From NCBI GenBank assembly GCA_036252695.1, contig GCA_036252695.1_4122.1: DNA of 64,000 bases; one strand, 5' to 3'. Positions 12,843 through 26,022 of the stretch are shown one piece after another. Source of the DNA: a phage. Each line of letters opens with the position of its first letter. Position 1 is the first letter of the stretch. The notes beneath the pieces were generated by a model. The model did not search any database and was not told the DNA's origin. It saw nothing but the letters and a program-made list of their open reading frames with translations. The position numbers and the translations under genes were made by a program.

Positions 12843-12869
12843 AATATATTACCAGTACTATTAAATCTA

Positions 12870-12897: not shown

Positions 12898-12941
12898 AAG
12901 TTTTATAAACAGTAGTTAACTTAACCTAAGAGAGAAATAAA

Positions 12942-13085: not shown

Positions 13086-13091
13086 GATTAT

Positions 13092-13125
13092 AGCCCACTG
13101 GTTAACGCTGGTGGGCTTTAATCAT
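13092..13125 (+). terminator. possible intrinsic terminator
   Basis: agcccactgg...ctggtgggct hairpin; weak T tract. Confidence 0.4.
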
Positions 13126-13190
13126 TTACCCTATACAATGCCAGTACTAAACCGTTTATCTCGTTAGAATGCGTTACAGGACGTTTAACA

Positions 13191-13388
13191 ATGATTAGCA
13201 TGAAATCAGTACAAAAACAAATAGAAACATTATCAAAAATTAAACGTAAACAATACTCCTTAGAATATACAATCAATGGTAACTATCATCTAATGAAAGA
13301 AAATAATTTTATAGTCATTGATGAATCATTGCAAATTATTAGTATAGTACTGAAAGCATTAATCAATGACAGAAAAAAATTAAAATAA
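13191..13388 (+). CDS. hypothetical AT-rich small protein
   Basis: ORF track; weak RBS; composition differs from neighbours. Confidence 0.35.
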   Translation: MISMKSVQKQIETLSKIKRKQYSLEYTINGNYHLMKENNFIVIDESLQIISIVLKALINDRKKLK

Positions 13389-13392
13389 TCTA

Positions 13393-13421
13393 TTGACAAT
13401 ATCCTCCAGTACTGGCATAAT
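13393..13421 (+). promoter_or_regulatory. sigma70 promoter with ~300-nt leader
   Basis: -35 TTGACA 13393-13398, -10 CATAAT 13416-13421. Confidence 0.6.
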
Positions 13422-13481
13422 ACTTACATCAAGACGAGAACGTCACTAACCCATAGGGTGCACAAATGTAACTATATAATA

Positions 13482-13558
13482 TCGATCAATAAATGATCAA
13501 AAAAGTACTGGATCAATTTAGCATAAGGAGTATAATTCTGATCAATTCTTGATCAAAG
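13482..13558. repeat. cluster of five GATCAA motifs (Dam-site cluster)
   Basis: GATCAA at 13484, 13495, 13511, 13540, 13551. Confidence 0.7.
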
Positions 13559-13717
13559 GCAATAAACGCAGTTGAATTTATATAGACAATACGAAGGCGT
13601 TACTATCCGTGGTAATGCTGGTGGATATGTAGTATCATGTGGTTTGAATAAGATTAGCACTAGTAGTATTATTGTAGCATTACAGTACTATAGTATTTTT
13701 ATAATGAGGTTAAAATA

Positions 13718-13975
13718 ATGGCTGTAGGATTTGCGAAGGACGGGGCCGAACAAGACGAGATTAACGCAGTGATTCAGGCCGCCGTAAACCACGCTAGAAA
13801 GCAAATTAACGCACAAATAGAATCACTGATACATTGCCTCGACTGTGGCGATAAAATCCCTGAGAATCGCCGCCAGGCTGTTAAGGGATGTAAGTACTGC
13901 ATAACTTGCCAGGAGGATCATGATAGTACTTTTAAAAGAGATCCGCGTAATTGTTGGCATAGATCTATGAGATAA
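13718..13975 (+). CDS. DksA/TraR-family C4 zinc-finger protein
   Basis: CLDCGDKIPENRRQAVKGCKYCITCQ fits the C-x2-C-x17-C-x2-C TraR/DksA zinc-finger pattern. Confidence 0.6.
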   Translation: MAVGFAKDGAEQDEINAVIQAAVNHARKQINAQIESLIHCLDCGDKIPENRRQAVKGCKYCITCQEDHDSTFKRDPRNCWHRSMR

Positions 13976-13981
13976 AAAGTA

Positions 13982-14009
13982 TTGACAGTACTGAAAGATA
14001 GTGTATAAT
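13982..14009 (+). promoter_or_regulatory. sigma70 promoter
   Basis: -35 TTGACA 13982-13987, -10 TATAAT 14004-14009. Confidence 0.7.
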
Positions 14010-14038
14010 ATTTTATATCTTAACTGAGGATAGTAATC

Positions 14039-14395
14039 ATGGGAATACAACATATCACGCGTACTACTGACAATGGTGAGATCACTGGCTATCAAGTACA
14101 GGGCAAAGTAGCACAATTGCAGTACTGGTTTGAAAAACGTGGAATCATTGCACCGGATCTTGATTATGACCGTGTAGCGTTTATTGATTCTCTTTATGTT
14201 GATCCTGATAGTCGGGGCAATGGTGAAGGTAACGAATTAATGAATGCCTTTATCGATGCCGCCGATGATTCAGATTGTATCATCTTAGAATGCGATACGG
14301 GAGAAGATAACGCCTTTAATCTTAAAGAATGGTACGAAGGTTTTGGATTCGAGGTACTGATCGATAGTGAATATCCTATCATGATTTTATCATAG
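14039..14395 (+). CDS. putative small GNAT-family acetyltransferase
   Basis: RGNGEGNELM (motif A-like R-G-x-G-x-G) and NAFNLKEWYEGFGF (motif B-like); 118 aa. Confidence 0.45.
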   Translation: MGIQHITRTTDNGEITGYQVQGKVAQLQYWFEKRGIIAPDLDYDRVAFIDSLYVDPDSRGNGEGNELMNAFIDAADDSDCIILECDTGEDNAFNLKEWYEGFGFEVLIDSEYPIMILS

Positions 14396-14398
14396 TAC

Positions 14399-14466
14399 TT
14401 GCATTTAGTTTTCAGTACTGTTATAGTACTTACATCAAGGGGAAACGTCTTCCCCTACTAAGAGGA
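14399..14466 (+). promoter_or_regulatory. sigma70 promoter + 5' stem-loop cassette
   Basis: -35 TTGCAT 14399-14404, -10 TTATAG 14421-14426, hairpin aggggaaacgtcttcccct. Confidence 0.6.
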
Positions 14467-14473
14467 AATGAAA

Positions 14474-14662
14474 ATGGAAAACTTATCAAGTATTTTAGTA
14501 CAAGATGATTTCGGTAATCCTGGAAGTGCTATCATAGTTCGGGGCAATAAAGCAACGTTTGTTCTTGCTGGTGGGCCAGTACAGCGTAGCATTAAAAATA
14601 ATGCTGTTACCATTAATAATGTACGCTATCGCTTAGATAAAGAATTAATTAAAAATATGTAA
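14474..14662 (+). CDS. small hypothetical protein
   Basis: RBS aagagga 8 nt upstream of ATG 14474. Confidence 0.55.
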   Translation: MENLSSILVQDDFGNPGSAIIVRGNKATFVLAGGPVQRSIKNNAVTINNVRYRLDKELIKNM

Positions 14663-14687
14663 TATTAACTCAATAGGAAAACGATAA

Positions 14688-15011
14688 ATGTATATTCACA
14701 CTACTATCACAAAAGAAGTCCGTTGTCAATTCGAAAGTATCCCAGGTGTATGTTTCATTACAGGCACTTTCTCACCTGGTGACCGTGATAATCCAGTACT
14801 GTTACAATTACGCCATCCATCATGGGATAAAGCATTTGATCTACCGTTGAATGAATTCGCAACTACTGCTGAAAAGTACATTAAAAATATTCGCGAGAAT
14901 GATCGACTATTCATTAATGCTTTCAGTGATTCCGCGTTAAGCGAGATTCATGCGGTACTAGTTGCAATCATGGAATCAATGCAGAAAACTAAATTCAAAC
15001 AAGGTGAATAA
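14688..15011 (+). CDS. hypothetical early protein
   Basis: RBS aggaaaa; ORF track. Confidence 0.6.
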   Translation: MYIHTTITKEVRCQFESIPGVCFITGTFSPGDRDNPVLLQLRHPSWDKAFDLPLNEFATTAEKYIKNIRENDRLFINAFSDSALSEIHAVLVAIMESMQKTKFKQGE

Positions 15012-15017
15012 AAACTA

Positions 15018-15076
15018 TTGACAATGCAATCCAGTACTGTATAATAAGTTACATGAAGGGGAGAAATGATTCTCCC
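15018..15076 (+). promoter_or_regulatory. sigma70 promoter + 5' stem-loop cassette
   Basis: -35 TTGACA 15018-15023, -10 TATAAT 15040-15045, hairpin ggggagaaatgattctcccc. Confidence 0.75.
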
Positions 15077-15095
15077 CAGTACTGAGGAAAGAAAA

Positions 15096-15308
15096 ATGCA
15101 AGGTCAACTAATCGTTCGTAAATGGTCTGATACTAACGCTAAACCGTGGGATGTACAATACATCGCCCCCAATGGTGAATCCAGATATCAACCAGGTGTA
15201 ACGCATAGTACTGAGCAATTTGCCGCCGCTCACCGTGAACGACTGTTACAATCCATGCAGCAAGGCTTCGGTGAAAAATTCATTCAGGATCATTGGCTGA
15301 AAGATTAA
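15096..15308 (+). CDS. hypothetical early protein
   Basis: RBS gaggaaa; ATG 15096. Confidence 0.6.
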   Translation: MQGQLIVRKWSDTNAKPWDVQYIAPNGESRYQPGVTHSTEQFAAAHRERLLQSMQQGFGEKFIQDHWLKD

Positions 15309-15315
15309 AAAGTAC

Positions 15316-15374
15316 TTGCACAGTACTGAATAAAGTGTATAATGTTTTATATCGAGAGGGGAACTATTCCCCTC
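15316..15374 (+). promoter_or_regulatory. sigma70 promoter + 5' stem-loop cassette
   Basis: -35 TTGCAC 15316-15321, -10 TATAAT 15338-15343, hairpin gaggggaactattcccctc. Confidence 0.7.
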
Positions 15375-15394
15375 CTAACAAAAAGGAAAGTATA

Positions 15395-15568
15395 ATGATC
15401 CAAGTAGAATTATCAGTACTGAAAGATCTATTTTATCGGTTAGGTACTAATGGCGAGTATCCTAAAAGTGATACCGCAAAACTTTTTGTATCACTCGACT
15501 TATGGCAACGCGAACAATTAGTAATGTCGTGGCGTAAAGGTAAAGCAGATCGCGAGGTGAAAGCATGA
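15395..15568 (+). CDS. small hypothetical protein
   Basis: RBS aaggaaa; ATG 15395. Confidence 0.55.
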   Translation: MIQVELSVLKDLFYRLGTNGEYPKSDTAKLFVSLDLWQREQLVMSWRKGKADREVKA

Positions 15569-15714
15569 AAGAATTCTTATTCGAAGTAGTGTTTCAAGGT
15601 GTCGGTAGTAACCAACTGATTCGCTCAAGTGGTTATAATGTTAACCAGGCATGGAATAACATTAAACAAATGTACCCGAACGCTATCACATATCGCAACC
15701 CGAAAGAAGTTTAA
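15565..15714 (+). CDS. small hypothetical protein (49 aa; not in ORF track)
   Basis: ATGA overlap with upstream stop; MKEFLFEVVFQGV... Confidence 0.35.
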   Translation: MKEFLFEVVFQGVGSNQLIRSSGYNVNQAWNNIKQMYPNAITYRNPKEV

Positions 15715-15724
15715 AAATAATTGA

Positions 15725-15900
15725 AAAAGGGATTGACTCCGGTCAATCCCTTTGCTATTATATACGCATAGAAACAAATTAGCCCACCGGGTGCATAAAT
15801 GTATCTATTGTTTGCTGGTGGCTAGTACTATCAAGTACTGAAAACTATTTTTAAAAAAGTACTTGCATTGTACTTAGAATCAAGTATAATGTTTTACATC
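15725..15900 (+). repeat. dispersed ~175-bp intergenic module (copy similar to 20941-21105)
   Basis: Perfect hairpin gggattgactccggtcaatccc with embedded TTGACT/TATTAT; agcccaccgggtgc box. Confidence 0.85.
15864..15890 (+). promoter_or_regulatory. sigma70 promoter (upstream of conserved leader copy 2)
   Basis: -35 TTGCAT 15864-15869, -10 TATAAT 15885-15890. Confidence 0.65.
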
Positions 15901-15976
15901 AGGACGGGGAACGAAATAAGTAACTTCCCGTTAAGTAGTCCAGGAGTAAGACATACGAAAAACTCCCCTGATAAAA
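15897..15976 (+). ncRNA. candidate small RNA / structured leader, copy 2
   Basis: Near-identical to 4922-5000 with a few substitutions; between tandem promoters. Confidence 0.25.
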
Positions 15977-15980
15977 TAGT

Positions 15981-16008
15981 TTGACAATAGAAATTAAACG
16001 AGTATAAT
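15981..16008 (+). promoter_or_regulatory. sigma70 promoter
   Basis: -35 TTGACA 15981-15986, -10 TATAAT 16003-16008. Confidence 0.7.
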
Positions 16009-16040
16009 ACTTACATCAACCACTGATAAGGAAACATAAA

Positions 16041-16316
16041 ATGCGGATTCTACTGACAGCTAACGAAATCGAACAAGTACTGACTACTAACCTGGAAGAC
16101 TGGAAACGTGAAGCAGATATCCAGTCGGTTCAATGGCTTAACGATAAGTTAACGCCGGATGACTTAAGCAAGATTGTAGATCCTCAATTCTACGAAGATA
16201 TCCACGACACCGCGTTAAGCGTCGAGGATGTACTAGATAAGCACTTTATTGATACAGATTTGCAGGTTTACGGTCGTAAAAACTTTATCACTATTCACGA
16301 CATTTACAATACTTAA
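16041..16316 (+). CDS. hypothetical acidic protein
   Basis: RBS aaggaaa; ORF track. Confidence 0.65.
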   Translation: MRILLTANEIEQVLTTNLEDWKREADIQSVQWLNDKLTPDDLSKIVDPQFYEDIHDTALSVEDVLDKHFIDTDLQVYGRKNFITIHDIYNT

Positions 16317-16319
16317 GTA

Positions 16320-16382
16320 TTGACAAAGTATCTTAGTACTGTATAATAGTTTACATCAAGTGAGGGGAAACGGTTCCCCTCC
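16320..16382 (+). promoter_or_regulatory. sigma70 promoter + 5' stem-loop cassette
   Basis: -35 TTGACA 16320-16325, -10 TATAAT 16342-16347, hairpin gaggggaaacggttcccctc; duplicated at 16591. Confidence 0.75.
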
Positions 16383-16404
16383 TAACAAAGAGAGAGAAAT
16401 AAAA

Positions 16405-16587
16405 ATGGCTAAGTGCACTATCTGCAAGAAAGAAATAGTATTAGTTCCAAGTGCCCGTGAACGTGCCGCTCGGTTTGGTGGCAAAGCGTCAGACTATACA
16501 AAAATGTTTACTGCCCATACAGCTTGCCAGGTAGCAAAACGTTCACAAGAAAGCGTAGAATTAATGCGTAAACTTTCCAAAAAATAA
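16405..16587 (+). CDS. small Cys-containing protein (possible zinc ribbon)
   Basis: MAKCTICKKE...HTACQ; RBS agagagaga. Confidence 0.55.
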   Translation: MAKCTICKKEIVLVPSARERAARFGGKASDYTKMFTAHTACQVAKRSQESVELMRKLSKK

Positions 16588-16590
16588 GTA

Positions 16591-16652
16591 TTGACAAAGT
16601 ATCTTAGTACTGTATAATAGTTTACATCAAGTGAGGGGAATGGTTCCCCTCC
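16591..16652 (+). promoter_or_regulatory. sigma70 promoter + 5' stem-loop cassette
   Basis: -35 TTGACA 16591-16596, -10 TATAAT 16613-16618, hairpin gaggggaatggttcccctc. Confidence 0.75.
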
Positions 16653-16674
16653 TAACAAAAAGAGAGAAATTAAA

Positions 16675-16998
16675 ATGACTATGATCCTTACCCAGAAAGT
16701 AGAAATGAAAATTGTAACTTCCTTTGACATTAAAGTTAATCGGTGGACTGATAGCCACGGCAATACTTACCACTCATGCTACGTGTCTGCATTGATTGGT
16801 GACCGCTGGGAAGACCTGGGACATGAAACCTTTACTTACGGTTACGGTACACAAGGCGAATACACGGGCTTGGAGATCATTAAAGAAACCGTTATAGGTT
16901 TCAACCCGAAAGAAAAAGTTATTCACCGCATCGAGGAAGAGATCAACAAAGAAATTACAGTTCGTTACTACGATGTAAAACGTAAGAAAGACATGTAA
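16675..16998 (+). CDS. hypothetical early protein (paralog of 9591..9914)
   Basis: NRWTDSHGNTYHSC...ETFTYGYG...VKRKKDM. Confidence 0.7.
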   Translation: MTMILTQKVEMKIVTSFDIKVNRWTDSHGNTYHSCYVSALIGDRWEDLGHETFTYGYGTQGEYTGLEIIKETVIGFNPKEKVIHRIEEEINKEITVRYYDVKRKKDM

Positions 16999-17020
16999 TA
17001 GAATCCATTTAAAGTACTAT

Positions 17021-17049
17021 TTGACATTGCCCAGATAGTACTTTATAAT
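17021..17049 (+). promoter_or_regulatory. sigma70 promoter
   Basis: -35 TTGACA 17021-17026, 17-nt spacer, -10 TATAAT 17044-17049. Confidence 0.7.
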
Positions 17050-17097
17050 AGACTCTAACTTGTAGTACTAATTAACTTAACTAATAGGATGTACACC

Positions 17098-17493
17098 ATG
17101 ATTACTAAATTCTTCGCTACCCGTGAACAAGCTCGCATCGTTGCCCGTGAAGAAGGTGAAACATTTAAAGACATGGGCAAAGATGCACCGAAAGGACAAC
17201 GCTGGGCGGTACAGTTCAAAGAGATCTCTGATATTGTGAATTCACCTGAACCAGTACTTACTGAAGCAGAACTGAAGAAAGCTCAAGAACTGGCTGAAGT
17301 ACTGAACGCTCAAGATGACTTCTTGAAAGGTTCTGATATTCAAGTACAAGTGAATAGTAATGCATGGACTCACGCGGATCACCTGGCAAACCTTAAGCGT
17401 CCAAGTGAACTGATTCGTAACCAGAAAGAGATTCGTCATGACCGTAAAGGAAACCGTGTAACAGTATACAGTAAACGCCGCCAGGTTATCTAA
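17098..17493 (+). CDS. hypothetical early protein (paralog of 4056..4322)
   Basis: FATREQARIVAREEGETFKDMG...RKGNRVTVY. Confidence 0.65.
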   Translation: MITKFFATREQARIVAREEGETFKDMGKDAPKGQRWAVQFKEISDIVNSPEPVLTEAELKKAQELAEVLNAQDDFLKGSDIQVQVNSNAWTHADHLANLKRPSELIRNQKEIRHDRKGNRVTVYSKRRQVI

Positions 17494-17516
17494 TAACTTT
17501 GCAGTACTAACAACAC

Positions 17517-17542
17517 GGCGGGAACTATTCCCGCCTTTTTTA
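17517..17542 (+). terminator. intrinsic terminator
   Basis: ggcgggaactattcccgcc + ttttttat. Confidence 0.7.
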
Positions 17543-17555
17543 TAGGATAAACAAA

Positions 17556-17810
17556 ATGATTAAGGTTCAACTATCAAACGATAATGTATTACGGGTACAC
17601 TATAAAGCCCCACAGAGAATCATCACAAAGGCCGTACAGCTTGCTAATGAGTTTATTAATGGTAGTCTATTGCCTAGGAAGTTAAGCAACGGGAAACTAC
17701 GTGTTATCGATGTAGACACTAACAATAGAATAGTGATCGAGAGTACTGGAAAAATTAATCTATATGAACACCAACAATACAATAAAAAAATAAAACTAAT
17801 ATCACGTTGA
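17556..17810 (+). CDS. hypothetical protein
   Basis: RBS aggataa; ORF track. Confidence 0.55.
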   Translation: MIKVQLSNDNVLRVHYKAPQRIITKAVQLANEFINGSLLPRKLSNGKLRVIDVDTNNRIVIESTGKINLYEHQQYNKKIKLISR

Positions 17811-17835
17811 CAGTACTCAAATGTTTTAGTATTAT
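17807..17835 (+). promoter_or_regulatory. sigma70 promoter
   Basis: -35 TTGACA 17807-17812, -10 TATTAT 17830-17835; module duplicated at 18088. Confidence 0.65.
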
Positions 17836-17868
17836 GTATCTATACCAACACAGAGAGAGAGAAACAAA

Positions 17869-18087
17869 ATGAAATTATCTAAAATCGAAAAGAAAACTAT
17901 TGATGAAGCAGTGAAGCACGGTTATACCTTTCGTAATGATTCACACTTCACTAGTTTTCAACAGGGAAACCGTACCATCAAAAAACTCATTGATAAAGGT
18001 TTACTCACTAAGGTTGATAACGGGAACGGTGTAGAATATCAACCGACAGAAGACGCATTATCACTAAAGAAATATTCTATTATCTAA
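17869..18087 (+). CDS. hypothetical protein
   Basis: RBS agagagaga; ORF track. Confidence 0.6.
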   Translation: MKLSKIEKKTIDEAVKHGYTFRNDSHFTSFQQGNRTIKKLIDKGLLTKVDNGNGVEYQPTEDALSLKKYSII

Positions 18088-18116
18088 TTGACAGTACTCA
18101 AATGTTTTAGTACTAT
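18088..18116 (+). promoter_or_regulatory. sigma70 promoter
   Basis: -35 TTGACA 18088-18093, -10 TACTAT 18111-18116. Confidence 0.6.
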
Positions 18117-18144
18117 GTACGCATACCAACACGGGGAAAACAAA

Positions 18145-18387
18145 ATGATTACTTTAGAAAAACGTATCAAAGAGACTACAACGCTGGTGGAACTGTTAAC
18201 CGTTCTTAAATGCCGGGTAACTCCATTCAGTACACCGGACTTTATCAACATGGTGGACGTTAACGGTCGATATCGTATTGCGGTCGAACAAGGTACGGCA
18301 AAAGTATTCAGTACTAAAAATACGCGTGAAGTATTCCACGCAGTTCAAGTAAAAAAAGTAGTTGCCATTGATAGTAAAGTACTGTAA
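18145..18387 (+). CDS. hypothetical protein
   Basis: ATG 18145 after acggggaaaacaaa RBS region. Confidence 0.55.
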   Translation: MITLEKRIKETTTLVELLTVLKCRVTPFSTPDFINMVDVNGRYRIAVEQGTAKVFSTKNTREVFHAVQVKKVVAIDSKVL

Positions 18388-18418
18388 TATAGTTTCATTA
18401 ACTCAAGGAGTCAACACA

Positions 18419-19003
18419 ATGCGTAACTATACTAAATTCATCCGTTCACTTCATGCAATGGAAACCAACAAAGAGATCCTTTCAGCTTGTCGGTTAGCTG
18501 GACTGGAGATCGTCGGTGCGGGTTCTTCCCGTATTGTATTCGCTTTAAATGATCGGTTAGTGATTAAGGTCGCGAATTGTGATGCGGGTGTAGAACAAAA
18601 TGAAACTGAATGTAAGGTATGGAATTTTTTAGATTATGACCGTCCGCACCTTAAACAGTACTTTGCTAAAGTGCATATGCATTTATGCGATCCTGATAAT
18701 CTGTTTATTGTTATGGATCGTTTGAGTACTGCAAGCAAAGGCAGTGTAAAGCATGTAAACGCGTGCAATGAGTTAAAGTACAATATTAAACGTAATACGG
18801 TAGAACGCCATCACCATTTCGCTGATGCTCTCAATCACGTTGATGATACATTATCCACACTAACGATAAGAGATATCAGAAAACAGAATATCGGCCAGGA
18901 TCGCAACGGCTTGATTAAAGTACTTGATTACGGTTTAACCCGCAATATCTGGAATCAGTACTATAAAAAACGTGATGTTAACGCGATAACTATAACACGA
19001 TAA
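18419..19003 (+). CDS. putative minimal Ser/Thr protein-kinase-like protein
   Basis: Gly-rich loop GAGSSRIVF, VIKV lysine, catalytic-loop-like IRDIRKQNI, DFG-like LDYG; RBS aaggag. Confidence 0.45.
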   Translation: MRNYTKFIRSLHAMETNKEILSACRLAGLEIVGAGSSRIVFALNDRLVIKVANCDAGVEQNETECKVWNFLDYDRPHLKQYFAKVHMHLCDPDNLFIVMDRLSTASKGSVKHVNACNELKYNIKRNTVERHHHFADALNHVDDTLSTLTIRDIRKQNIGQDRNGLIKVLDYGLTRNIWNQYYKKRDVNAITITR

Positions 19004-19011
19004 AAAAGATT

Positions 19012-19205
19012 AAAAAAGGGATTGACTCCAGTCAGTCCCTTTGCTATTATATATTCATTGAGAGATAACTCACTGACCCATAGGGTGCGGAAGTGTATCT
19101 ATTATATAAGTATTCAGTACTGAAAACTATTTTATAAAAAGTACTTGCAAACTATCTCAATGAGCGTATAATGTTTTATATCGAGAGGGGGAAATGGTTC
19201 TCCCT
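19012..19205 (+). repeat. dispersed ~190-bp intergenic module (near-identical to 11717-11910)
   Basis: Same hairpin/promoter, acccatagggtgcgg box and promoter cassette. Confidence 0.85.
19145..19205 (+). promoter_or_regulatory. sigma70 promoter + 5' stem-loop cassette
   Basis: -35 TTGCAA 19145-19150, -10 TATAAT 19167-19172, hairpin agggggaaatggttctccct. Confidence 0.75.
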
Positions 19206-19227
19206 GGTACTAAAAGGAATCAAGACG

Positions 19228-19449
19228 ATGACTACTATGACATGCGTTCACGCTTCAAATCTTCTGAATGATGCAGCATTTAAAGCAGGTGAAGAATATC
19301 AATGCTATCGGGATGAAAATAAAAAAGTTTTCGTCGTTGATGCTAACGGTTTCCATATTGAATTACAATCCGGCTTCACTGGTGTTGATGGTAAATCAGT
19401 ATGGGGCGTACAGGATGATAACGGTACATATCATTTTAAACGTAATTAA
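19228..19449 (+). CDS. hypothetical early protein
   Basis: RBS aaaagga; ATG 19228. Confidence 0.6.
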   Translation: MTTMTCVHASNLLNDAAFKAGEEYQCYRDENKKVFVVDANGFHIELQSGFTGVDGKSVWGVQDDNGTYHFKRN

Positions 19450-19452
19450 GTA

Positions 19453-19511
19453 TTGACAAAGTATATCAGTACTGTATAATAGTTTACATCAAGGGGAGAA
19501 TAGCTCTCCCC
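19453..19511 (+). promoter_or_regulatory. sigma70 promoter + 5' stem-loop cassette
   Basis: -35 TTGACA 19453-19458, -10 TATAAT 19475-19480, hairpin ggggagaatagctctcccc. Confidence 0.75.
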
Positions 19512-19533
19512 ACCAATAAAAGGAAACAAAATT

Positions 19534-19806
19534 ATGTCCAGCTACTCCGCTACTATGATTATTAAAGATATGAACGGTAATCCTACTTCTGCTGGTGGAT
19601 CATTTGGTAACATTAATTTAGATGGGCGGTTATCAATTGAATCAGCCATCAATGCAGCGAAAGAAGTTTTTAAGAATGAATGTACTGTAAGCAAACTGGA
19701 TTATATGGGCTTCGCTATCGAGAAAACTAATCGTTTTGTGGACTACAAAAAACCACTGATGATTGATACTAACCTGAAAGCAAACGAAGTGGAATACTTA
19801 TTATGA
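19534..19806 (+). CDS. hypothetical early protein
   Basis: RBS aaaggaaa; ORF track. Confidence 0.65.
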   Translation: MSSYSATMIIKDMNGNPTSAGGSFGNINLDGRLSIESAINAAKEVFKNECTVSKLDYMGFAIEKTNRFVDYKKPLMIDTNLKANEVEYLL

Positions 19807-19994
19807 CAGTAGAAGAAGTTAAAAAAGTACTGGCAGTACTACGCTATCATAATCATTGTAAGGTGAAGAATGATCCTGATTATCTTGATTCATCGCTGGA
19901 AGAGGATACACTACAAGCAATAAGCCATATGCAAAAAATGCTTAAGCGTATGACCGAAAAGAACAGGCCGGACTATATCGGAAATAAAATTTAA
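19803..19994 (+). CDS. hypothetical protein
   Basis: ATGA start/stop overlap with upstream gene. Confidence 0.5.
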   Translation: MTVEEVKKVLAVLRYHNHCKVKNDPDYLDSSLEEDTLQAISHMQKMLKRMTEKNRPDYIGNKI

Positions 19995-20001
19995 AAAGTA
20001 C

Positions 20002-20058
20002 TTGCATTGTAAGTAAAACAAAGTATAATGTTTTACATAGGGGGAGATATCCTCCCCC
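20002..20058 (+). promoter_or_regulatory. sigma70 promoter + 5' stem-loop cassette
   Basis: -35 TTGCAT 20002-20007, -10 TATAAT 20024-20029, hairpin gggggagatatcctccccc. Confidence 0.75.
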
Positions 20059-20077
20059 ACTAATAAGGAGTACTAAA

Positions 20078-20302
20078 ATGGCTAACTTTGATGAACTGAT
20101 GCGGGAAGTAGCTACCCTGGCAGAAGAGAAGAAATCATTTGATTCTATCTATAACACCGCTTACAGTGATTCAGTACTGGCATGTACTCAGGATCAAAAA
20201 GATGAACTGATCGCCACCTATCATGAAGCATGGAAGTATTACCGCCAATGGGAGAAAGAAGAAAGCGAGTCTACCATCAACGGCATCAATAATCTAATCT
20301 AA
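20078..20302 (+). CDS. hypothetical acidic protein
   Basis: RBS aaggag; ORF track. Confidence 0.65.
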   Translation: MANFDELMREVATLAEEKKSFDSIYNTAYSDSVLACTQDQKDELIATYHEAWKYYRQWEKEESESTINGINNLI

Positions 20303-20320
20303 AGTTTTATTTCAGTACTA

Positions 20321-20349
20321 TTGACAATGCGTGATAGTACTGATGTAAT
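20321..20349 (+). promoter_or_regulatory. sigma70 promoter
   Basis: -35 TTGACA 20321-20326, -10 TGTAAT 20344-20349. Confidence 0.55.
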
Positions 20350-20377
20350 AACTTTACTAACTACAAGGGGAAACATA

Positions 20378-20635
20378 ATGGAACAGTTCACACAATATCG
20401 GGTAAATCCTCAAGCTATGGCCTACGTAGAAGACCATAAAACATTACCAGTACAGACACCAATCAAAGGCCGTATCTATCGTGCTATGCAGTGGAATAAC
20501 GCCTATAATGGCTATAAAGCGGTAGCGGCTGCAATGTACTTAGGGGATGGCGAATGGTTTGATCCAAATAATCCTGGTGCACTAGATAGTACTGAACAAA
20601 TGACATGGGCCGACTATATCGAAGATATTTCATAA
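20378..20635 (+). CDS. hypothetical protein
   Basis: RBS aagggga; ATG 20378. Confidence 0.6.
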   Translation: MEQFTQYRVNPQAMAYVEDHKTLPVQTPIKGRIYRAMQWNNAYNGYKAVAAAMYLGDGEWFDPNNPGALDSTEQMTWADYIEDIS

Positions 20636-20642
20636 AAACTAT

Positions 20643-20703
20643 TTGACAGTACTACAAGATAATGTATAATGTTTTACATAGAGCGGGGGAATAGTTCTCC
20701 CGC
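20643..20703 (+). promoter_or_regulatory. sigma70 promoter + 5' stem-loop cassette
   Basis: -35 TTGACA 20643-20648, -10 TATAAT 20665-20670, hairpin gcgggggaatagttctcccgc. Confidence 0.75.
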
Positions 20704-20723
20704 ACCTTTAGGAGTAAAACATT

Positions 20724-20924
20724 ATGTCAATCGCTAACGAATTGGTTGCAGTACTGAATGAAGCAAAAGCCAACTGCATCGATGTACAGATCAAAGAGCT
20801 TGGCAATGGCTTGATCGGCTGTACTTGTACAGTGCAAACGGCTACCGATTATCGGGAAGTGGAATCACTCGAATCACTGGTACGGTATATTAAAATCCTG
20901 GTAGAAGATTGGAGAATCATCTAA
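20724..20924 (+). CDS. hypothetical protein
   Basis: RBS taggagt; ORF track. Confidence 0.6.
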   Translation: MSIANELVAVLNEAKANCIDVQIKELGNGLIGCTCTVQTATDYREVESLESLVRYIKILVEDWRII

Positions 20925-20940
20925 CAAAAAAGAATAAAAA

Positions 20941-21105
20941 AAAGGGATTGACTCCGGTCAGTCCCTTTGCTATTATATACGCATAGACAAAAACTAGCCC
21001 ACAGGGTGCAGAGAAGTATCTATAAGATAGTTAATAACGGTGAGTAACTATCTGCTGGTGGATGTAATGCCAGTACTCAAAACTATTTCAAAAAAAGTAT
21101 TGACA
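20941..21105 (+). repeat. dispersed intergenic module (copy similar to 15725-15900)
   Basis: aaagggattgactccggtcagtccctttgctattatatacgcatag + agcccacagggtgc. Confidence 0.85.
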
Positions 21106-21127
21106 AAGTATATCAGTACTGAGATAA
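21100..21127 (+). promoter_or_regulatory. sigma70 promoter
   Basis: -35 TTGACA 21100-21105, -10 GATAAT 21122-21127; module duplicated at 21417. Confidence 0.65.
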
Positions 21128-21182
21128 TGTATCTCGTAGGGCGGCAATAGTGCAGCCCACCTCCAAAAGAGCGAGATATAAA

Positions 21183-21398
21183 ATGGCGTTAACCAAACAA
21201 GAAATTATCGACCGTATCAAAGAGTCAACTGGCTGGTATGTTGGGGACCGTTTAATTGTTAAAGTTCTCGATTATTCAAATAATCCTCTTGCACCGGAAC
21301 CAGTGGCATACAAATTATCCTGGATATCTGCGTTTAGCGGTAAGCGTGAAAGATGTGTGTACTATCCGAACACAGTCGGGCTACAGTTCTGTAAATAA
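21183..21398 (+). CDS. hypothetical protein
   Basis: ATG 21183; ORF track frame. Confidence 0.55.
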   Translation: MALTKQEIIDRIKESTGWYVGDRLIVKVLDYSNNPLAPEPVAYKLSWISAFSGKRERCVYYPNTVGLQFCK

Positions 21399-21416
21399 AT
21401 TTTAATAGAAAAAGTA

Positions 21417-21445
21417 TTGACAAAGTATATCAGTACTGCAATAAT
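21417..21445 (+). promoter_or_regulatory. sigma70 promoter
   Basis: -35 TTGACA 21417-21422, -10 AATAAT 21440-21445. Confidence 0.6.
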
Positions 21446-21498
21446 GTATCTCGTAGGGCGGCAATGGTGCGACGGCCCACAAAGTTAGGAGATTCACC

Positions 21499-21825
21499 AT
21501 GAGTACTTCAATCGCTATCGTTAAAGCTTTCATCCGTACCAATTTCGACCGCATTACTGTTGATGGTAATGATCGGGAAGTAGAATACTCTTTCATTGTT
21601 GCACAAACCGCAAACGGTGCACGCTATATCTTAAACGATAGTGAAGCTAACCACTACTTCTATAATAAAGGATTACACTACATCCCTAGCGAAGTAGTCT
21701 ACAGTAAGATGAATAAGCTGGTAGACAAGATTAACGCTAAAGGTACTATCGATTTACAGTACTGGACCGAAACCGATCCAGAATACGGATCACATCGTTA
21801 CCTGAATCCAGGAATTAAAATGTAA
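21499..21825 (+). CDS. hypothetical protein
   Basis: RBS taggaga; ORF track. Confidence 0.65.
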   Translation: MSTSIAIVKAFIRTNFDRITVDGNDREVEYSFIVAQTANGARYILNDSEANHYFYNKGLHYIPSEVVYSKMNKLVDKINAKGTIDLQYWTETDPEYGSHRYLNPGIKM

Positions 21826-21833
21826 AAAGTACT

Positions 21834-21894
21834 TGCATTGTACTTAGAATCAAGTATAATGTTTTACATAGAGAGGGGGAAATGGTTCTCCCTC
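21834..21894 (+). promoter_or_regulatory. sigma70 promoter + 5' stem-loop cassette
   Basis: -35 TTGCAT 21834-21839, -10 TATAAT 21855-21860, hairpin gagggggaaatggttctccctc; same promoter sequence as 15864. Confidence 0.75.
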
Positions 21895-21914
21895 CTAAAT
21901 TAAGGAGTTTTATC

Positions 21915-22316
21915 ATGACCTTCTCAATCACTTCCTTCGCTGACGTTTTAGTACTGGCTCGGACTTTTGGTAAAGATGCACTGGAGTACGCTGTAAGTAA
22001 TGGCACTCTCCAACCGGAACAATGCCGCATCATTGGAAACTGCAAACGTTGGGCGGTATCCAATACTATTGCACTAGAAAACTTCAACGATGGTAACAAT
22101 GAGTATTCAGTTGATGCAGTATTCGAAGCCGTTGATCTTGGCGGTATCTATAACACTAACCTAAATGATGTGCGTATCGTTCGCACGGGGTTCGGTGCTT
22201 ATGATGTATCTATCCGTGAAGCTATGAACACCGGATACATTAGTAAGGACTTACTTGCTCACATCATGCAGCTATGGACGGAACGTAACGAAGCACGCAC
22301 TATCTTAGGGCTGTAA
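21915..22316 (+). CDS. hypothetical protein (133 aa)
   Basis: RBS taaggag; ATG 21915. Confidence 0.65.
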   Translation: MTFSITSFADVLVLARTFGKDALEYAVSNGTLQPEQCRIIGNCKRWAVSNTIALENFNDGNNEYSVDAVFEAVDLGGIYNTNLNDVRIVRTGFGAYDVSIREAMNTGYISKDLLAHIMQLWTERNEARTILGL

Positions 22317-22340
22317 GCATTACACATCACCAAACATCAT

Positions 22341-22360
22341 AGGCCGCTCTCTAGCGGCCT
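22341..22360 (+). terminator. hairpin, possible weak terminator
   Basis: aggccgctctctagcggcct; no T tract. Confidence 0.3.
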
Positions 22361-22384
22361 TAACTATATCAGGAGGGCATACAT

Positions 22385-22594
22385 ATGTTCTATACAGTAT
22401 ACAGCGTTCTAGGTACTATTGCTGGCGTACATGATAACGTCAGTGATGCTATGCGTACAGTACTGCAACAGGTTCCACTAAAGCCTAAGACTGTTAAGCA
22501 GATGACAGCACGACTAACCAGGGCGACGGATGGCGTGGAAGTATGGCAGGACTACGGGGATACACAGATAATCGTTAGCGTAACGAAGGATTAA
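22385..22594 (+). CDS. hypothetical protein
   Basis: RBS aggaggg; ORF track. Confidence 0.6.
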   Translation: MFYTVYSVLGTIAGVHDNVSDAMRTVLQQVPLKPKTVKQMTARLTRATDGVEVWQDYGDTQIIVSVTKD

Positions 22595-22625
22595 TGCGTA
22601 AAGGGATCTAGTACTGATTCAGAAA

Positions 22626-22690
22626 AAAGTCAAGGCGTTTTTAAAATAATGCGTTAAAAAAATGCATAGGTAATCCCTTGACTTTTTTAA
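22626..22690. repeat. inverted repeat at the compositional boundary
   Basis: aaaaagtcaagg 22626.. and reverse complement ccttgacttttt ..22690, ~35-nt loop. Confidence 0.6.
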
Positions 22691-22785
22691 AATAAAAGGG
22701 ATTGGACTATGGCAAAATGCGTAGGGGGCTAAAGGGCGGGTAACCTTAGCGACTTCGATAAAGGGGTATTACGAATAAAATGTTA

Positions 22786-22813
22786 TTGACTTTTTATACA
22801 ATTCATATATTAT
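22786..22813 (+). promoter_or_regulatory. sigma70 promoter at head of the LGTNYQ-family array
   Basis: -35 TTGACT 22786-22791, -10 TATTAT 22808-22813. Confidence 0.55.
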
Positions 22814-22843
22814 ATGATTGATATTATTTTCAAGGGAGTCCCT

Positions 22844-23041
22844 ATGCGTATTTTAACTCAAGCAGAACACCACGAAAGACTTATCAATAACATGGCTATG
22901 ATAATGTATAAGTCACATGACCGTGGTATTGCCTATAAGCGTGAATTAATTATGGCACTATTCATTGGGACTAACTATCAGGAAAGGTATGTCAAGGATT
23001 GGATTTGGTATTTAATTGAAGATGTAACGAGTAAACTATGA
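22844..23041 (+). CDS. LGTNYQ-family small protein (A1)
   Basis: RBS caaggga; motif FIGTNYQERYV. Confidence 0.6.
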   Translation: MRILTQAEHHERLINNMAMIMYKSHDRGIAYKRELIMALFIGTNYQERYVKDWIWYLIEDVTSKL

Positions 23042-23238
23042 AAATGCGTAAATTAACCGAAAAAGAATATCAAGCACTGTTACGTAAAAACTTCACAAAG
23101 ATTTATAATACAGACTCACACGTAGAACGAATGGAGTTATACCTTTTGATTACATTGGGAACTAACTATCAGGATGCATGGGTAACGAAATATGTGGATA
23201 CATTGAAAAATGAAATTTTGTCCACGAGGAAACAATGA
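23038..23238 (+). CDS. LGTNYQ-family small protein (A2)
   Basis: ATGA coupling; TLGTNYQDAWV. Confidence 0.6.
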   Translation: MKMRKLTEKEYQALLRKNFTKIYNTDSHVERMELYLLITLGTNYQDAWVTKYVDTLKNEILSTRKQ

Positions 23239-23444
23239 AAACTATAACACGAACCCAATCATACGGTCTTATCTTGAAATACATGGACTTAATGGTGGAT
23301 ATCAGCAAAGACCTTCCTAAAACTGAAATTGAAGTTGCAAGAGCAGAGATCCGTATGTTGGCTGTACTGAACACAAACCATCAGGAAGAGTATGTTCAAG
23401 ATTGGATTCGATTTTTAATAGAAGATATTAAGAGTAAACTATGA
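23235..23444 (+). CDS. LGTNYQ-family small protein (A3)
   Basis: ATGA coupling; VLNTNHQEEYV. Confidence 0.6.
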   Translation: MKTITRTQSYGLILKYMDLMVDISKDLPKTEIEVARAEIRMLAVLNTNHQEEYVQDWIRFLIEDIKSKL

Positions 23445-23653
23445 TTATATTAACACCTGAAGAATATAAGAAACGTTTTAAATCTGTCCAGGCTGAAATA
23501 TTACTTATATACCTTTCAAATGCAGATCTTAACTTATCAAGGGTAATGGAGAAGGATTTACTTATGGGTGCATTTTTGGATACAGACTTTCAGGAGTATT
23601 ATGTAGGAGAATACTTTATTGCACTTCAGAACCACATTAAGAGTAAACTATGA
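23441..23653 (+). CDS. LGTNYQ-family small protein (A4)
   Basis: ATGA coupling; FLDTDFQEYYV. Confidence 0.6.
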   Translation: MIILTPEEYKKRFKSVQAEILLIYLSNADLNLSRVMEKDLLMGAFLDTDFQEYYVGEYFIALQNHIKSKL

Positions 23654-23865
23654 TTATTCTAGAAAAATCATATCAATATACTGAACGCATCGCTGCCAGA
23701 CAACTTGAAATCCTCATAATATACGAAGAGACTTCTGATTTAAACTTAGCCGAGGTATTGGAAAATGAAATACTTTTGGGTGCATTCTTGGGAACAGACT
23801 ATCAGGAGTATTATGAGGAAAAGTATTTGTCATCTCTTGAGAAATACGTCAGGAGCAAACTATGA
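23650..23865 (+). CDS. LGTNYQ-family small protein (A5)
   Basis: ATGA coupling; FLGTDYQEYYE. Confidence 0.6.
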   Translation: MIILEKSYQYTERIAARQLEILIIYEETSDLNLAEVLENEILLGAFLGTDYQEYYEEKYLSSLEKYVRSKL

Positions 23866-24089
23866 AACATTTAAGTAATATAGAGAAGAATAAAATTATC
23901 ATTGCTGTAATAAACAAATATTTTACACTTCCACAAAAAGAATGTTTATCTATAAGGGAACACAGGATAAACACCACCGAGATTCGCATGTTGGCTGTAC
24001 TGGGGACTAACTTCCAAGAAGGCTATGTTCATGAGCACATCGTTGCACTCACTAATTACATAATGGACAAATGTAATGAACATCATTAA
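23862..24089 (+). CDS. LGTNYQ-family small protein (A6)
   Basis: ATGA coupling; VLGTNFQEGYV. Confidence 0.6.
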   Translation: MKHLSNIEKNKIIIAVINKYFTLPQKECLSIREHRINTTEIRMLAVLGTNFQEGYVHEHIVALTNYIMDKCNEHH

Positions 24090-24300
24090 TAACTTTGAAT
24101 ACGAGGCCCGTGCTAAGAGTGCCAGAAAAAAAGAGAACACCATTTACTTCACTATGATGTACTTACAATGGACTGAAATTGAAGAAAAGGTTGCTGAAGT
24201 ATGGATGTTGGAATTCATGGGGACGCAGTATCAGAATAGGTTTGCGGGTGAGTATATCAATGTTCTTATGAAACAAATAGAAAGAAAGGAAAAGAACTAA
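24076..24300 (+). CDS. LGTNYQ-family small protein (A7)
   Basis: FMGTQYQNRFA. Confidence 0.55.
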   Translation: MNIINNFEYEARAKSARKKENTIYFTMMYLQWTEIEEKVAEVWMLEFMGTQYQNRFAGEYINVLMKQIERKEKN

Positions 24301-26021: not shown

Positions 26022-26022
26022 C

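What the first reader, a model, noticed from the sequence alone, without database searches (positions are those of the whole stretch)
18419..19003. Possible minimal protein kinase
The 194-aa protein contains, in order, a glycine-rich loop (GAGSSRIVF), a VIKV lysine, a catalytic-loop-like IRDIRKQNI and a DFG-like LDYG, then stops shortly afterwards, so it lacks a canonical activation segment. Phage-encoded kinases that modify host proteins are known, but the assignment rests on motif order alone.
Basis: inference. Interest (0 to 1): 0.6.

Follow-up and report, generated by a model that had tools for sequence, protein, structure and literature searches.

The report
Compact early-gene kinase of jumbo phage
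This 194-residue jumbo-phage protein is a stripped-down kinase that keeps the whole ATP-using catalytic core but ends just after it; it resembles the phage T7 host-takeover kinase in design, has been predicted as a kinase before, and has never been tested.

Summary
ORF 18419..19003 (+) encodes a 194-aa protein with GAGSSRIVF (33-41), K50, D152/N157 and D170-Y-G172, and stops 22 residues later. The window is an Asteriusvirus jumbo phage (98.6% to Escherichia phage 121Q; the gene is gp308).

The family is large (2,061 clusters at 50% identity). It is filed as PHROG 4301 "unknown function" and has no Pfam model. It is unrelated in sequence to T7 kinase but shares its motif spacing and short C-lobe.

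The gene sits among perfect sigma-70 promoters, and in a relative it lies in the terminal repeat, so it is probably an early host-directed kinase. Substrate and activity are untested.

Several GenBank records and one paper already call it a putative protein kinase, so novelty is modest.

The parts
18419..19003 (+). CDS of the 194-aa compact kinase-fold protein (ortholog of 121Q gp308 / Sharanji gp063; PHROG 4301)
   Evidence: ORF and annotation in relatives; PHROG 4301, E 2.6e-42; AF2 pLDDT 95.5; kinase-like fold.
18405..18410 (+). Shine-Dalgarno AAGGAG, 8 nt before the ATG
   Evidence: Read directly from the sequence.
18428..18496 (+). N-terminal extension of two helices (residues 4-12 and 17-26) before beta1; F7 and L29 are conserved across the family
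   Evidence: Secondary structure of the model; conservation.
18515..18541 (+). Glycine-rich ATP-binding loop GAGSSRIVF (residues 33-41). The family signature is G-x-G-S-S-R-x-V-[FY], with invariant S36 and R38; R38 takes the place of the third Gly of canonical kinases
   Evidence: beta1-turn-beta2 in the model.
18566..18568 (+). K50, invariant beta3 lysine (the VAIK-lysine equivalent) in V-[LI]-K-[IVL]-A
   Evidence: strand 47-52 in the model.
18587..18610 (+). Start of helix alphaC with the family-specific motif G57-x-x-Q60-N61-x-x-E64 (E64 invariant; the alphaC glutamate equivalent)
   Evidence: helix 55-73 in the model.
18872..18895 (+). Catalytic loop D152-I-R-K-Q-N157-I-G159. D152 is 98/99 and G159 is 99/99; position 157 is N in this subfamily and N/H/S/T/Q family-wide; there is no H-R before the Asp (non-RD)
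   Evidence: aligned to the HRD...N loop of MKK4, MKK7 and PKC.
18926..18934 (+). D170-Y-G172, the equivalent of the metal-binding DFG motif (D and G 98/99)
   Evidence: aligned to the DFG of MKK4, MKK7 and AKT.
18935..19000 (+). 22-residue C-terminal tail: one short helix (residues 175-182, family pattern [LF]-[TS]-x-x-[VI]-x-x-x-[YHF]-Y), then the end of the protein. It replaces the activation segment and subdomains VIII-XI
   Evidence: many relatives stop 11-12 residues after DxG.
17807..17835 (+). Sigma-70-type promoter-like site (TTGACA-17-TATTAT, 11/12); likely start of the transcription unit holding ORFs 17869-18087 and 18145-18387 and the kinase (inferred)
18088..18116 (+). Second promoter-like site upstream (TTGACA-17-TACTAT, 10/12)
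19015..19042 (+). 12-bp hairpin starting 12 nt after the stop codon; terminator-like, but with a weak T-tract
12285..20670 (+). Cluster of 10 perfect-consensus sigma-70 promoters (TTGACA-N16-17-TATAAT, most with an extended -10 TG and a shared AGTACTG spacer) that brackets the kinase gene; marks an early, host-RNA-polymerase-transcribed region
   Evidence: 13 perfect sites in the window, all on the + strand, versus 0.23 expected (0 of 100 shuffles reach 13).

Best explanation
The gene encodes a compact protein-kinase-like (PKL) phosphotransferase.

Architecture: it has a full ATP-binding N-lobe (Gly-rich loop, K50-E64 pair) and only the catalytic half of the C-lobe (alphaD, alphaE, catalytic loop D152...N157, DYG 170-172). 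One short helix then follows and the protein ends.

Regulation (inferred): it has no activation segment and no Arg before the catalytic Asp. It should therefore be constitutively active as soon as it is made, with an open active site of low specificity.

Expression (inferred): host sigma-70 RNA polymerase transcribes it very early, from DNA that is among the first to enter the cell.

Most likely role (inferred): it phosphorylates host proteins, and possibly phage proteins, on Ser/Thr during takeover or to blunt host defences. This is what the architecturally equivalent but sequence-unrelated T7 gp0.7 kinase does.

Shown here: fold, conserved catalytic residues, family-wide short architecture, promoter context. 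Inferred: catalysis, protein substrate, timing and biological role.
For: Fold:
- AF2 with 99 sequences gives pLDDT 95.5, pTM 0.91.
- The Foldseek PDB top hits are likewise kinases.

Catalytic residues: S36, R38, K50, E64 and G159 are invariant, and D152, D170 and G172 are 98/99, down to about 20% identity.

Sequence: profile and single-sequence searches of PDB and Pfam hit protein kinases across N-lobe to DFG. One member nearly reaches the AceK kinase threshold.

Not a truncation:
- 2,061 cluster representatives match; the best 150 listed are mostly 180-280 aa and many end at the profile's C-terminus.
- The median tail after DxG is 20 residues.

T7K parallel:
- T7K has K93, D196 and D213, giving spacings of 103 and 17 against 102 and 18 here.
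- The active T7K kinase domain is residues 1-242, with DPV at 213-215 (PMC13645617).
- T7-like phage kinases are better structural matches (TMq 0.53-0.56) than cellular kinases (0.40-0.48).

Precedent for activity without subdomains VIII-XI: NleH/OspG (PMC12756638).

Early expression:
- 13 perfect sigma-70 promoters lie on the gene's strand against 0.23 expected, and 10 of them surround the gene.
- The Muenster ortholog lies in the 20,030-bp terminal repeat.

Delivery into the host: P0154, a 3,248-aa PhageMin_Tail protein, carries two such domains, the second read through with its catalytic residues in place.
Against: - No activity data exist for any member (searches found none).
- Pfam Pkinase scores 17.5 bits against a 31.7-bit threshold.
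- There is no detectable sequence homology to T7K (hhalign probability 0.2%; no member hits PHROG 2828), so the functional analogy rests on architecture only.
- The peptide-binding elements of canonical protein kinases (P+1 loop, alphaF, alphaG) are absent.
- Distant members sit near, or are fused to, RNA-repair enzymes.
- N157, the second metal ligand, is not conserved family-wide (45% N).
- I had no model coordinates, so the K50-E64 contact and the packing of the C-terminal helix were not checked.
Confidence: 0.55

Rival explanations
1. It is an active PKL-fold phosphotransferase, but the acceptor is not a protein. It could be RNA or tRNA (as for the archaeal tRNA kinase ArkI), or a small molecule such as a nucleotide signal, sugar or antibiotic (as for the APH enzymes).
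For: - The elements that bind peptide substrates in canonical kinases are missing.
- Distant family members lie within 5 kb of a CCA-adding enzyme, HD and NUDIX, of RtcB and a KTI12/AAA_33 P-loop kinase, and of Thg1.
- P0139 joins a complete domain to a GNAT, a 2H phosphoesterase and a CCA-adding enzyme.
Against: - The helical substrate-binding subdomain of the APH and choline-kinase enzymes is absent.
- The closest architectural analogue, T7K, and the subdomain VIII-XI-less OspG/NleH are protein kinases.
- The window has no tRNA gene or Rfam RNA, and no RNA-repair gene was detected among the eight neighbours scanned.
- The RNA-repair neighbours come from only three contexts of members at 20-26% identity, in large phages where such genes are common.
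Confidence: 0.2
2. It is a pseudokinase or nucleotide-binding scaffold, or it carries out different chemistry such as AMPylation. It would act by binding a host target and not by phosphotransfer.
For: - Very small kinase-like proteins that lack regulatory and substrate-binding parts are sometimes non-catalytic.
- NleH has kinase-independent interactions (PMC12756638).
- N157 varies across the family.
- R38 replaces the third glycine of the G-loop.
Against: Every residue needed for phosphotransfer (G-loop, K50, E64, D152, D170) is invariant or nearly so over a very divergent family. Pseudokinases typically lose one or more of these. Position 157 stays polar and metal-competent (N/H/S/T/Q in 97 of 99).
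Confidence: 0.07
3. It is a decayed fragment of a full-length kinase gene, or a chance run of kinase-like motifs in a small ORF.
For: The Pfam kinase hits are below threshold. The protein ends where canonical kinases still have about 100 residues to go.
Against: - Length and end-point are conserved in 99 aligned homologs (189-282 aa) and in the best-scoring of 2,061 cluster representatives.
- The gene has a strong SD and a hairpin after the stop.
- Orthologs are intact in more than 50 phage genomes.
- The model is compact and confident to the last residues.
- No kinase C-lobe remnant follows: the next ORF is unrelated.
Confidence: 0.01

Closest known systems
Phage T7 gp0.7 protein kinase (T7K; PHROG 2828)
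   Same: - A phage-encoded early gene near the genome end that enters first.
- A compact kinase domain with an N-terminal helical extension.
- Nearly identical motif spacing: Lys to catalytic Asp is 103 in T7K and 102 here; catalytic Asp to metal Asp is 17 and 18.
- The domain ends about 27 residues (T7K) or 22 residues (here) after the DFG-equivalent.
- T7-like phage kinases are the best annotated structural neighbours in the viral library (TMq 0.53-0.56).
   Different: - No detectable sequence relationship (hhalign probability 0.2%; PHROG 4301 and not 2828).
- DYG in place of DPV.
- GxGSSR and QNxxE signatures that T7K lacks.
- No C-terminal DNA-binding shut-off domain.
- Asteriusvirus phages are reported to carry a separate T7K homolog as well (PMC11895373, PMC13645617).
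- T7K activity is proven; this protein's is not.
[quoted passage not shown]
   Same: About 200-residue kinase domains that stop after the DFG region and lack the activation segment and substrate-binding helices, yet are active Ser/Thr kinases (PMC12756638). NleH2 is found by Foldseek (E 3.7e-3, TMq 0.39, TMt 0.45).
   Different: - No sequence-level hit in PDB searches.
- The structural score is no better than for ordinary kinases.
- They are bacterial effectors that act in eukaryotic cells and are activated by ubiquitin or E2~Ub, which has no counterpart in a phage-bacterium setting.
Bud32/PRPK and RIO atypical kinases; archaeal tRNA kinase ArkI
   Different: From established knowledge, those keep alphaF and further C-terminal helices or tails and work inside KEOPS, pre-ribosome or tRNA complexes. 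Here only one 8-residue helix follows DYG. There is no sequence-level relationship.
Aminoglycoside 2''-phosphotransferases (APH(2''))
   Different: APH enzymes are about 300 aa with a helical substrate-binding subdomain that this protein lacks. Identity is 18%. The margin over Ser/Thr kinases is small (9.0 against 8.0-8.6).

Membership tests
Protein-kinase-like (PKL) fold superfamily | Bilobal fold: N-lobe five-stranded sheet plus alphaC; C-lobe alphaE, catalytic loop and beta7-beta8 hairpin | tested here: met
Protein-kinase-like (PKL) fold superfamily | Nucleotide-binding and catalytic residues: Gly-rich loop, beta3 Lys, alphaC Glu, catalytic Asp, metal-binding Asp (DFG) | tested here: met
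   K50, E64, S36 and R38 are invariant; D152, D170 and G172 are 98/99; G35 is 94/99.
Protein-kinase-like (PKL) fold superfamily | ATP-dependent phosphotransfer activity | not testable with these tools
   Needs biochemistry. No published assay was found.
Canonical eukaryotic-type protein kinase domain (Pfam PF00069 / PF07714; Hanks subdomains I-XI) | Score at or above Pfam's gathering threshold | tested here: not met
   Pkinase scores 17.5 bits against 31.7; PK_Tyr_Ser-Thr scores 18.3 against 23.1. Only 8 of 14 close members give even weak hits, and 10 distant members give none.
Canonical eukaryotic-type protein kinase domain (Pfam PF00069 / PF07714; Hanks subdomains I-XI) | Activation segment ending in APE, then alphaF-alphaI (subdomains VIII-XI) | tested here: not met
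   Only 22 residues follow DYG, forming one short helix. The family median is 20 and the commonest values are 11-12.
Canonical eukaryotic-type protein kinase domain (Pfam PF00069 / PF07714; Hanks subdomains I-XI) | HRD motif (Arg before the catalytic Asp, which links activity to activation-loop phosphorylation) | tested here: not met
   This protein has I-R-D, but position 151 is G/A/N/S in most members and no His precedes it. It is a non-RD kinase.
T7 gp0.7 kinase family (PHROG 2828) | Sequence homology to the T7K kinase domain | tested here: not met
   hhalign of the family profile against T7K gives probability 0.2%. BLASTP finds nothing. No member of A4 matches PHROG 2828 at E <= 0.01.
T7 gp0.7 kinase family (PHROG 2828) | DPV motif in place of DFG; C-terminal shut-off / DNA-binding domain | tested here: not met
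   The motif is DYG (Y or F in 85 of 99). The protein ends at residue 194 with no extra domain.
T7 gp0.7 kinase family (PHROG 2828) | Compact architecture: kinase core ending about 25 residues after the DFG-equivalent, with the same motif spacing | tested here: met
   Spacings are 103 and 17 in T7K against 102 and 18 here. The T7K PK domain is residues 1-242 with DPV at 213-215. T7-like kinases give TMq 0.53-0.56.
PHROG 4301 (phage protein family, 'unknown function') | Significant match to the family profile over its full length | tested here: met
   E 2.6e-42, residues 1-190. All 99 members of A4 match it.
OspG/NleH minimal effector kinases | [quoted passage not shown] | tested here: met
   the family definition comes from PMC12756638.
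OspG/NleH minimal effector kinases | Sequence homology to OspG/NleH | tested here: not met
   Neither appears among the 60 best-scoring PDB sequence matches shown in each search (79, 251 and 206 matches at E <= 10 or <= 1). NleH2 appears only at Foldseek rank 50.
OspG/NleH minimal effector kinases | Activation by ubiquitin / E2~Ub binding | not testable with these tools
   Biochemical property; there is no ubiquitin system in the bacterial host.
Aminoglycoside / small-molecule PKL kinases (APH) | C-terminal helical substrate-binding subdomain | tested here: not met

The most novel reading that the evidence does not exclude
PHROG 4301 is a very large, uncurated superfamily (about 2,000 clusters at 50% identity) of the shortest kinase-fold enzymes known, ending 11-25 residues after the DFG-equivalent. 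Its real substrates may be RNA, tRNA or nucleotide signals and not proteins. That would make it a phage counterpart of the archaeal tRNA kinase ArkI, working with phage RNA-repair enzymes (CCA-adding enzyme, RtcB, Thg1, 2H phosphoesterase) in conflicts over host tRNA cleavage. The domain would also be deployed in tandem arrays and inside ejected tail proteins.
Probability: 0.12. Interest if true: 0.75.

Novelty: new member of a known kind. Interest (0 to 1): 0.42.

Why it matters
Phage T7's kinase was recently shown to disarm many bacterial defence systems by phosphorylating most proteins of the infected cell (PMC13645617). This gene represents a second compact phage kinase family with no sequence relationship to T7K. 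It is far more widespread in metagenomes than in cultured phages, has no curated model in Pfam, and is labelled 'unknown function' in PHROGs.

If it is active, RaK2/121Q-type jumbo phages would carry two independent early kinases. The family would also define how little of the C-lobe a working kinase needs.

It is cheap to test: the protein is 194 aa, the point mutants are obvious, and the host is E. coli. The result would improve annotation for thousands of phage genes.

Tried and rejected
- The first AF2 run, with only 14 close homologs, gave an unusable model (pLDDT 50). A 99-sequence alignment fixed this.
- The AFDB50 fold library was not available, so annotated cellular relatives could not be sought by structure.
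- No paralog of the gene exists in the window.
- A weak tblastn hit of T7K at window 34864-34989 (E 0.85) falls in ORF 34615-35142, which has no kinase motifs. I treat it as chance. The separate T7K-like kinase reported for Asteriusvirus phages was not found in this window.
- The 80-aa ORF directly upstream (18145-18387) is not a conserved partner: it has no similarity to the gene upstream of the kinase in L004 and no Pfam hit.
- NCBIfam gave nothing useful.
- The T7K paper's supplementary table was not held, so I could not check whether its 'Munch' and 'G17' jumbo-phage hits are this family or the other kinase.
- The run of 180-200-aa ORFs at 49-56 kb is not a BLAST-detectable paralog array.
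- There are no tRNA genes or Rfam families in the window.
- The truncated-pseudogene and chance-motif readings were rejected on conservation grounds.

Full report
**1. What is there**

The window is a jumbo myovirus of the genus Asteriusvirus. Bases 17500-20000 are 98.6% identical to Escherichia phage 121Q and about 90% identical to some thirty other E. coli and Salmonella jumbo phages.

The flagged ORF is real. It has an AAGGAG ribosome-binding site at 18405-18410, an ATG at 18419 and a stop codon ending at 19003, and encodes 194 aa. It corresponds to 121Q gp308 and Sharanji gp063.
- GAGSSRIVF at residues 33-41
- VIKV with K50
- IRDIRKQNI at 150-158, with D152 and N157
- LDYG at 169-172
- then 22 residues to the stop.

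There is no second copy in the window.

**2. Is it more than a motif coincidence?**

Single-sequence scans give only sub-threshold kinase hits. Pfam Pkinase scores 17.5 bits against a cut-off of 31.7. In the PDB the best hit is MKK4 at E = 0.0018, and the great majority of the listed matches are protein kinases aligned over the catalytic loop and DFG. By contrast the protein matches PHROG 4301, labelled 'unknown function', at E = 2.6e-42.

Homolog searches give the following:
- The word-indexed searches returned 13, then 38, then 92 proteins.
- The exhaustive profile search found 2,061 cluster representatives at E <= 1e-3, of which 244 are at E <= 1e-10.
- Ten distant members have no Pfam hit at all.
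- All 99 aligned members fall in PHROG 4301.

In the 99-sequence alignment A4, which reaches about 20% identity to the query, the signature is:
- L29
- G35-S36-S37-R38-x-V40
- V48-x-K50-x-A52
- G57-x-x-Q60-N61-x-x-E64
- D152-x4-[NHSTQ]-phi-G159
- D170-[YF]-G172
- an aromatic pair at 181-182.

S36, R38, K50, E64 and G159 are invariant, and D152, D170 and G172 are 98/99. These are exactly the positions needed for ATP binding and phosphotransfer in kinases. Two family-specific additions are R38 in the glycine loop and QN before the alphaC glutamate.

**3. Fold**

A 14-sequence alignment gave a useless model (pLDDT 50). The 99-sequence alignment gave mean pLDDT 95.5 and pTM 0.91. The elements in order are:
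- two N-terminal helices
- beta1 (30-35), beta2 (38-42), beta3 (47-52, carrying K50)
- a long alphaC (55-73, carrying E64), then beta4 and beta5
- alphaD (109-120) and alphaE (130-145)
- the catalytic loop, then beta7 (158-160) and beta8 (166-168)
- DYG, one short helix (175-182), and the end of the protein.

The N-lobe and the catalytic half of the C-lobe of a kinase are both present.

**4. The short C-terminus is the family's design**

The aligned homologs are 189-282 aa long. The tail after DxG has a median of 20 residues, and 11-12 is the commonest value. Three members stop 1-4 residues after the motif.

In Hanks' terms the family has subdomains I-VII and lacks VIII-XI: no activation segment, no APE, and no alphaF-alphaI. 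The Arg of HRD is also not conserved. The usual regulatory link between an activation loop and the catalytic loop therefore cannot exist. I infer from this that the enzyme is constitutively in its active geometry.

**5. Precedents**

More relevant is phage T7's gp0.7 kinase.
- It is active as residues 1-242 with its DFG-equivalent (DPV) at 213-215 (PMC13645617).
- Reading its sequence gives K93, D196 and D213. The spacings are 103 and 17 residues, against 102 and 18 here.
- In the viral structure library the RaK2 ortholog superposes at TM 0.85.
- Annotated kinases of T7-like phages (Ralstonia RSB1, Pantoea SK1, Yersinia fPS-53, Pectobacterium Q19) score TMq 0.53-0.56, better than any cellular kinase.
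- Yet there is no detectable sequence relationship: hhalign gives probability 0.2% and the PHROG is different.

Asteriusvirus phages are reported to carry a true T7K homolog in addition to this gene (PMC11895373; PMC13645617). I did not find that other gene in this window.

**6. Context**

All ORFs of 170 aa or more in the window lie on the + strand, and the short genes around the kinase are also on that strand.

There are 13 perfect TTGACA-N16-18-TATAAT promoters, all on the + strand, against 0.23 expected by chance. Ten of them lie between 12.2 and 20.7 kb, around the kinase gene. Most carry an extended -10 TG and a shared AGTACTG spacer. Promoter-like sites at 17807 (11/12) and 18088 (10/12) precede the gene, and a 12-bp hairpin follows it at 19015-19042. 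This is the signature of genes read by host RNA polymerase right after injection.

In Klebsiella phage Muenster the ortholog lies at 17.3 kb inside the PhageTerm-defined 20,030-bp terminal repeat. Other records also place it in their direct terminal repeats.

Among cultured phages the family is nearly confined to RaK2/121Q-type jumbo phages of enterobacteria, Xanthomonas, Erwinia and Yersinia, plus Alishewanella phages and Rhodothermus phage RM378. Metagenomic members sit on contigs of up to 310 kb with phage genes nearby.

**7. Hints from other architectures**

- Some proteins carry three or four complete tandem domains (P0044, P0046), and L008 has two adjacent family genes.
- P0154, a 3,248-aa protein with a PhageMin_Tail domain, holds two domains. 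The second reads AGSSR...LKVA...QNQLE...DMRVGN...IDLG, so its catalytic residues are in place. This suggests that some phages deliver the enzyme with the virion.
- P0193 is a GNAT-kinase fusion.
- P0139 (2,130 aa) joins a complete domain to a weak GNAT match, a 2H phosphoesterase and a CCA-adding enzyme.
- Three distant loci have RNA-repair genes within 5 kb: a CCA-adding enzyme with HD and NUDIX; RtcB with a KTI12-like P-loop kinase; and Thg1.

These last points keep an RNA- or nucleotide-directed activity alive as a rival. The sample is small, however, and nothing of the kind was detected among this window's immediate neighbours or in its tRNA and Rfam scans.

**8. Mechanism I commit to**

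The protein is an ATP-dependent phosphotransferase with a complete catalytic core and an open, unregulated active site. It is made in the first minutes of infection and most likely phosphorylates host proteins, and perhaps phage proteins, on Ser/Thr to aid takeover or blunt defences. It works like T7K without being a member of that family.

My confidence estimates are:
- kinase-like fold with an intact ATP site: about 0.9
- catalytically active phosphotransferase: about 0.75
- protein substrate and an early host-directed role: about 0.55.

The rivals are a non-protein substrate (0.2), a pseudokinase, binder or other chemistry (0.07), and a remnant or chance match (0.01).

**9. Novelty**

The prediction itself is not new.
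- Muenster's annotators recorded an HHpred hit at 99.9% and named the gene 'putative protein kinase'.
- K64-1 RefSeq, Munch, fENko-Kae01, ph0011, Turkey3/5 and fEgEco12 carry kinase names.
- UniProt labels the PBECO4 protein 'Protein kinase domain-containing'.
- The Sharanji paper mentions the ortholog as a second kinase of unknown function.

No experimental study was found.

What this analysis adds:
- the size of the family and its uniform truncated design
- its specific sequence signature
- its independence from T7K in sequence alongside the shared architecture
- the early-promoter and terminal-repeat context
- the tail-protein, tandem and RNA-repair fusions.

I rate it a new member of a known kind, namely compact phage or effector kinases that lack subdomains VIII-XI. 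Interest is moderate.

Noticed in passing
window 17556..17810 (+): An 84-aa ORF with a ParE-like toxin domain (Pfam PF24732, E 3e-10, above threshold) and no obvious antitoxin partner. It is 79% identical to the gene directly upstream of the kinase in L004 and 65% identical to Muenster's 'YafQ-like ribonuclease toxin'. It is more conserved than the kinase itself (51% and 36%). The three genes w17089, ParE-like and kinase are collinear in three jumbo-phage lineages, with variable genes inserted between them.
   Followed up: partly
window 5006..63776 (+), mainly 12285..20670: Thirteen perfect-consensus sigma-70 promoters (TTGACA-N16-18-TATAAT), all on the + strand, against 0.23 expected. Most share the spacer element AGTACTG and an extended -10 TG. 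The sites at 16320 and 16591 have identical sequences.
   Followed up: partly
P0044, P0046, P0050, P0053 (metagenomic proteins); L008 5001..6583: Family members occur as proteins with 2-4 complete tandem kinase domains, with the Lys, QNxxE and DxG motifs found in every copy and the strict G-loop pattern in most, and as adjacent paralogous genes. It is unclear whether the multi-domain proteins are true fusions or read-through gene calls.
   Followed up: partly
P0154 (3,248 aa), residues 125-315 and 664-1049: A phage minor-tail (tape-measure-type, PF10145) protein carries two embedded domains of this kinase family; the second was read through and has its catalytic residues in place. This suggests virion delivery of the enzyme in some phages.
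   Followed up: partly
P0139 (2,130 aa); L006 6556..8679; L007 6348..6827 and 10135..10765; L008 580..1356: Distant family members are fused to, or lie within 5 kb of, RNA-repair and tRNA enzymes: 2H phosphoesterase, CCA-adding enzyme, HD, NUDIX, RtcB, a KTI12/AAA_33 P-loop kinase and Thg1. There are too few cases to call this an association.
   Followed up: no
P0193 (330 aa); BFVD A0A6J5LUL6 (412 aa): Fusions of a GNAT acetyltransferase with this kinase domain recur. In 121Q and Turkey5 an acetyltransferase gene lies about 4 kb upstream of the kinase ortholog.
   Followed up: no
window 17869..18087 (+): A 72-aa ORF two genes upstream of the kinase is annotated 'transcriptional regulator' in phage Turkey5, but has no significant Pfam hit here.
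   Followed up: no
window 31820..32365 and 32653..33210 (+): These are the only BLAST-detectable paralog pair among the window's ORFs of 170 aa or more (30.5% identity). The long run of 180-200-aa same-strand ORFs at 49-56 kb shows no detectable mutual similarity.
   Followed up: partly
window 19015..19050 (+): The hairpin after the kinase stop codon (AAAGGGATTGACTCCAGTCAGTCCCTTT) overlaps a promoter-like site (TTGACT-17-TATTAT with TG). The same short stretch may therefore end one transcript and start the next.
   Followed up: no
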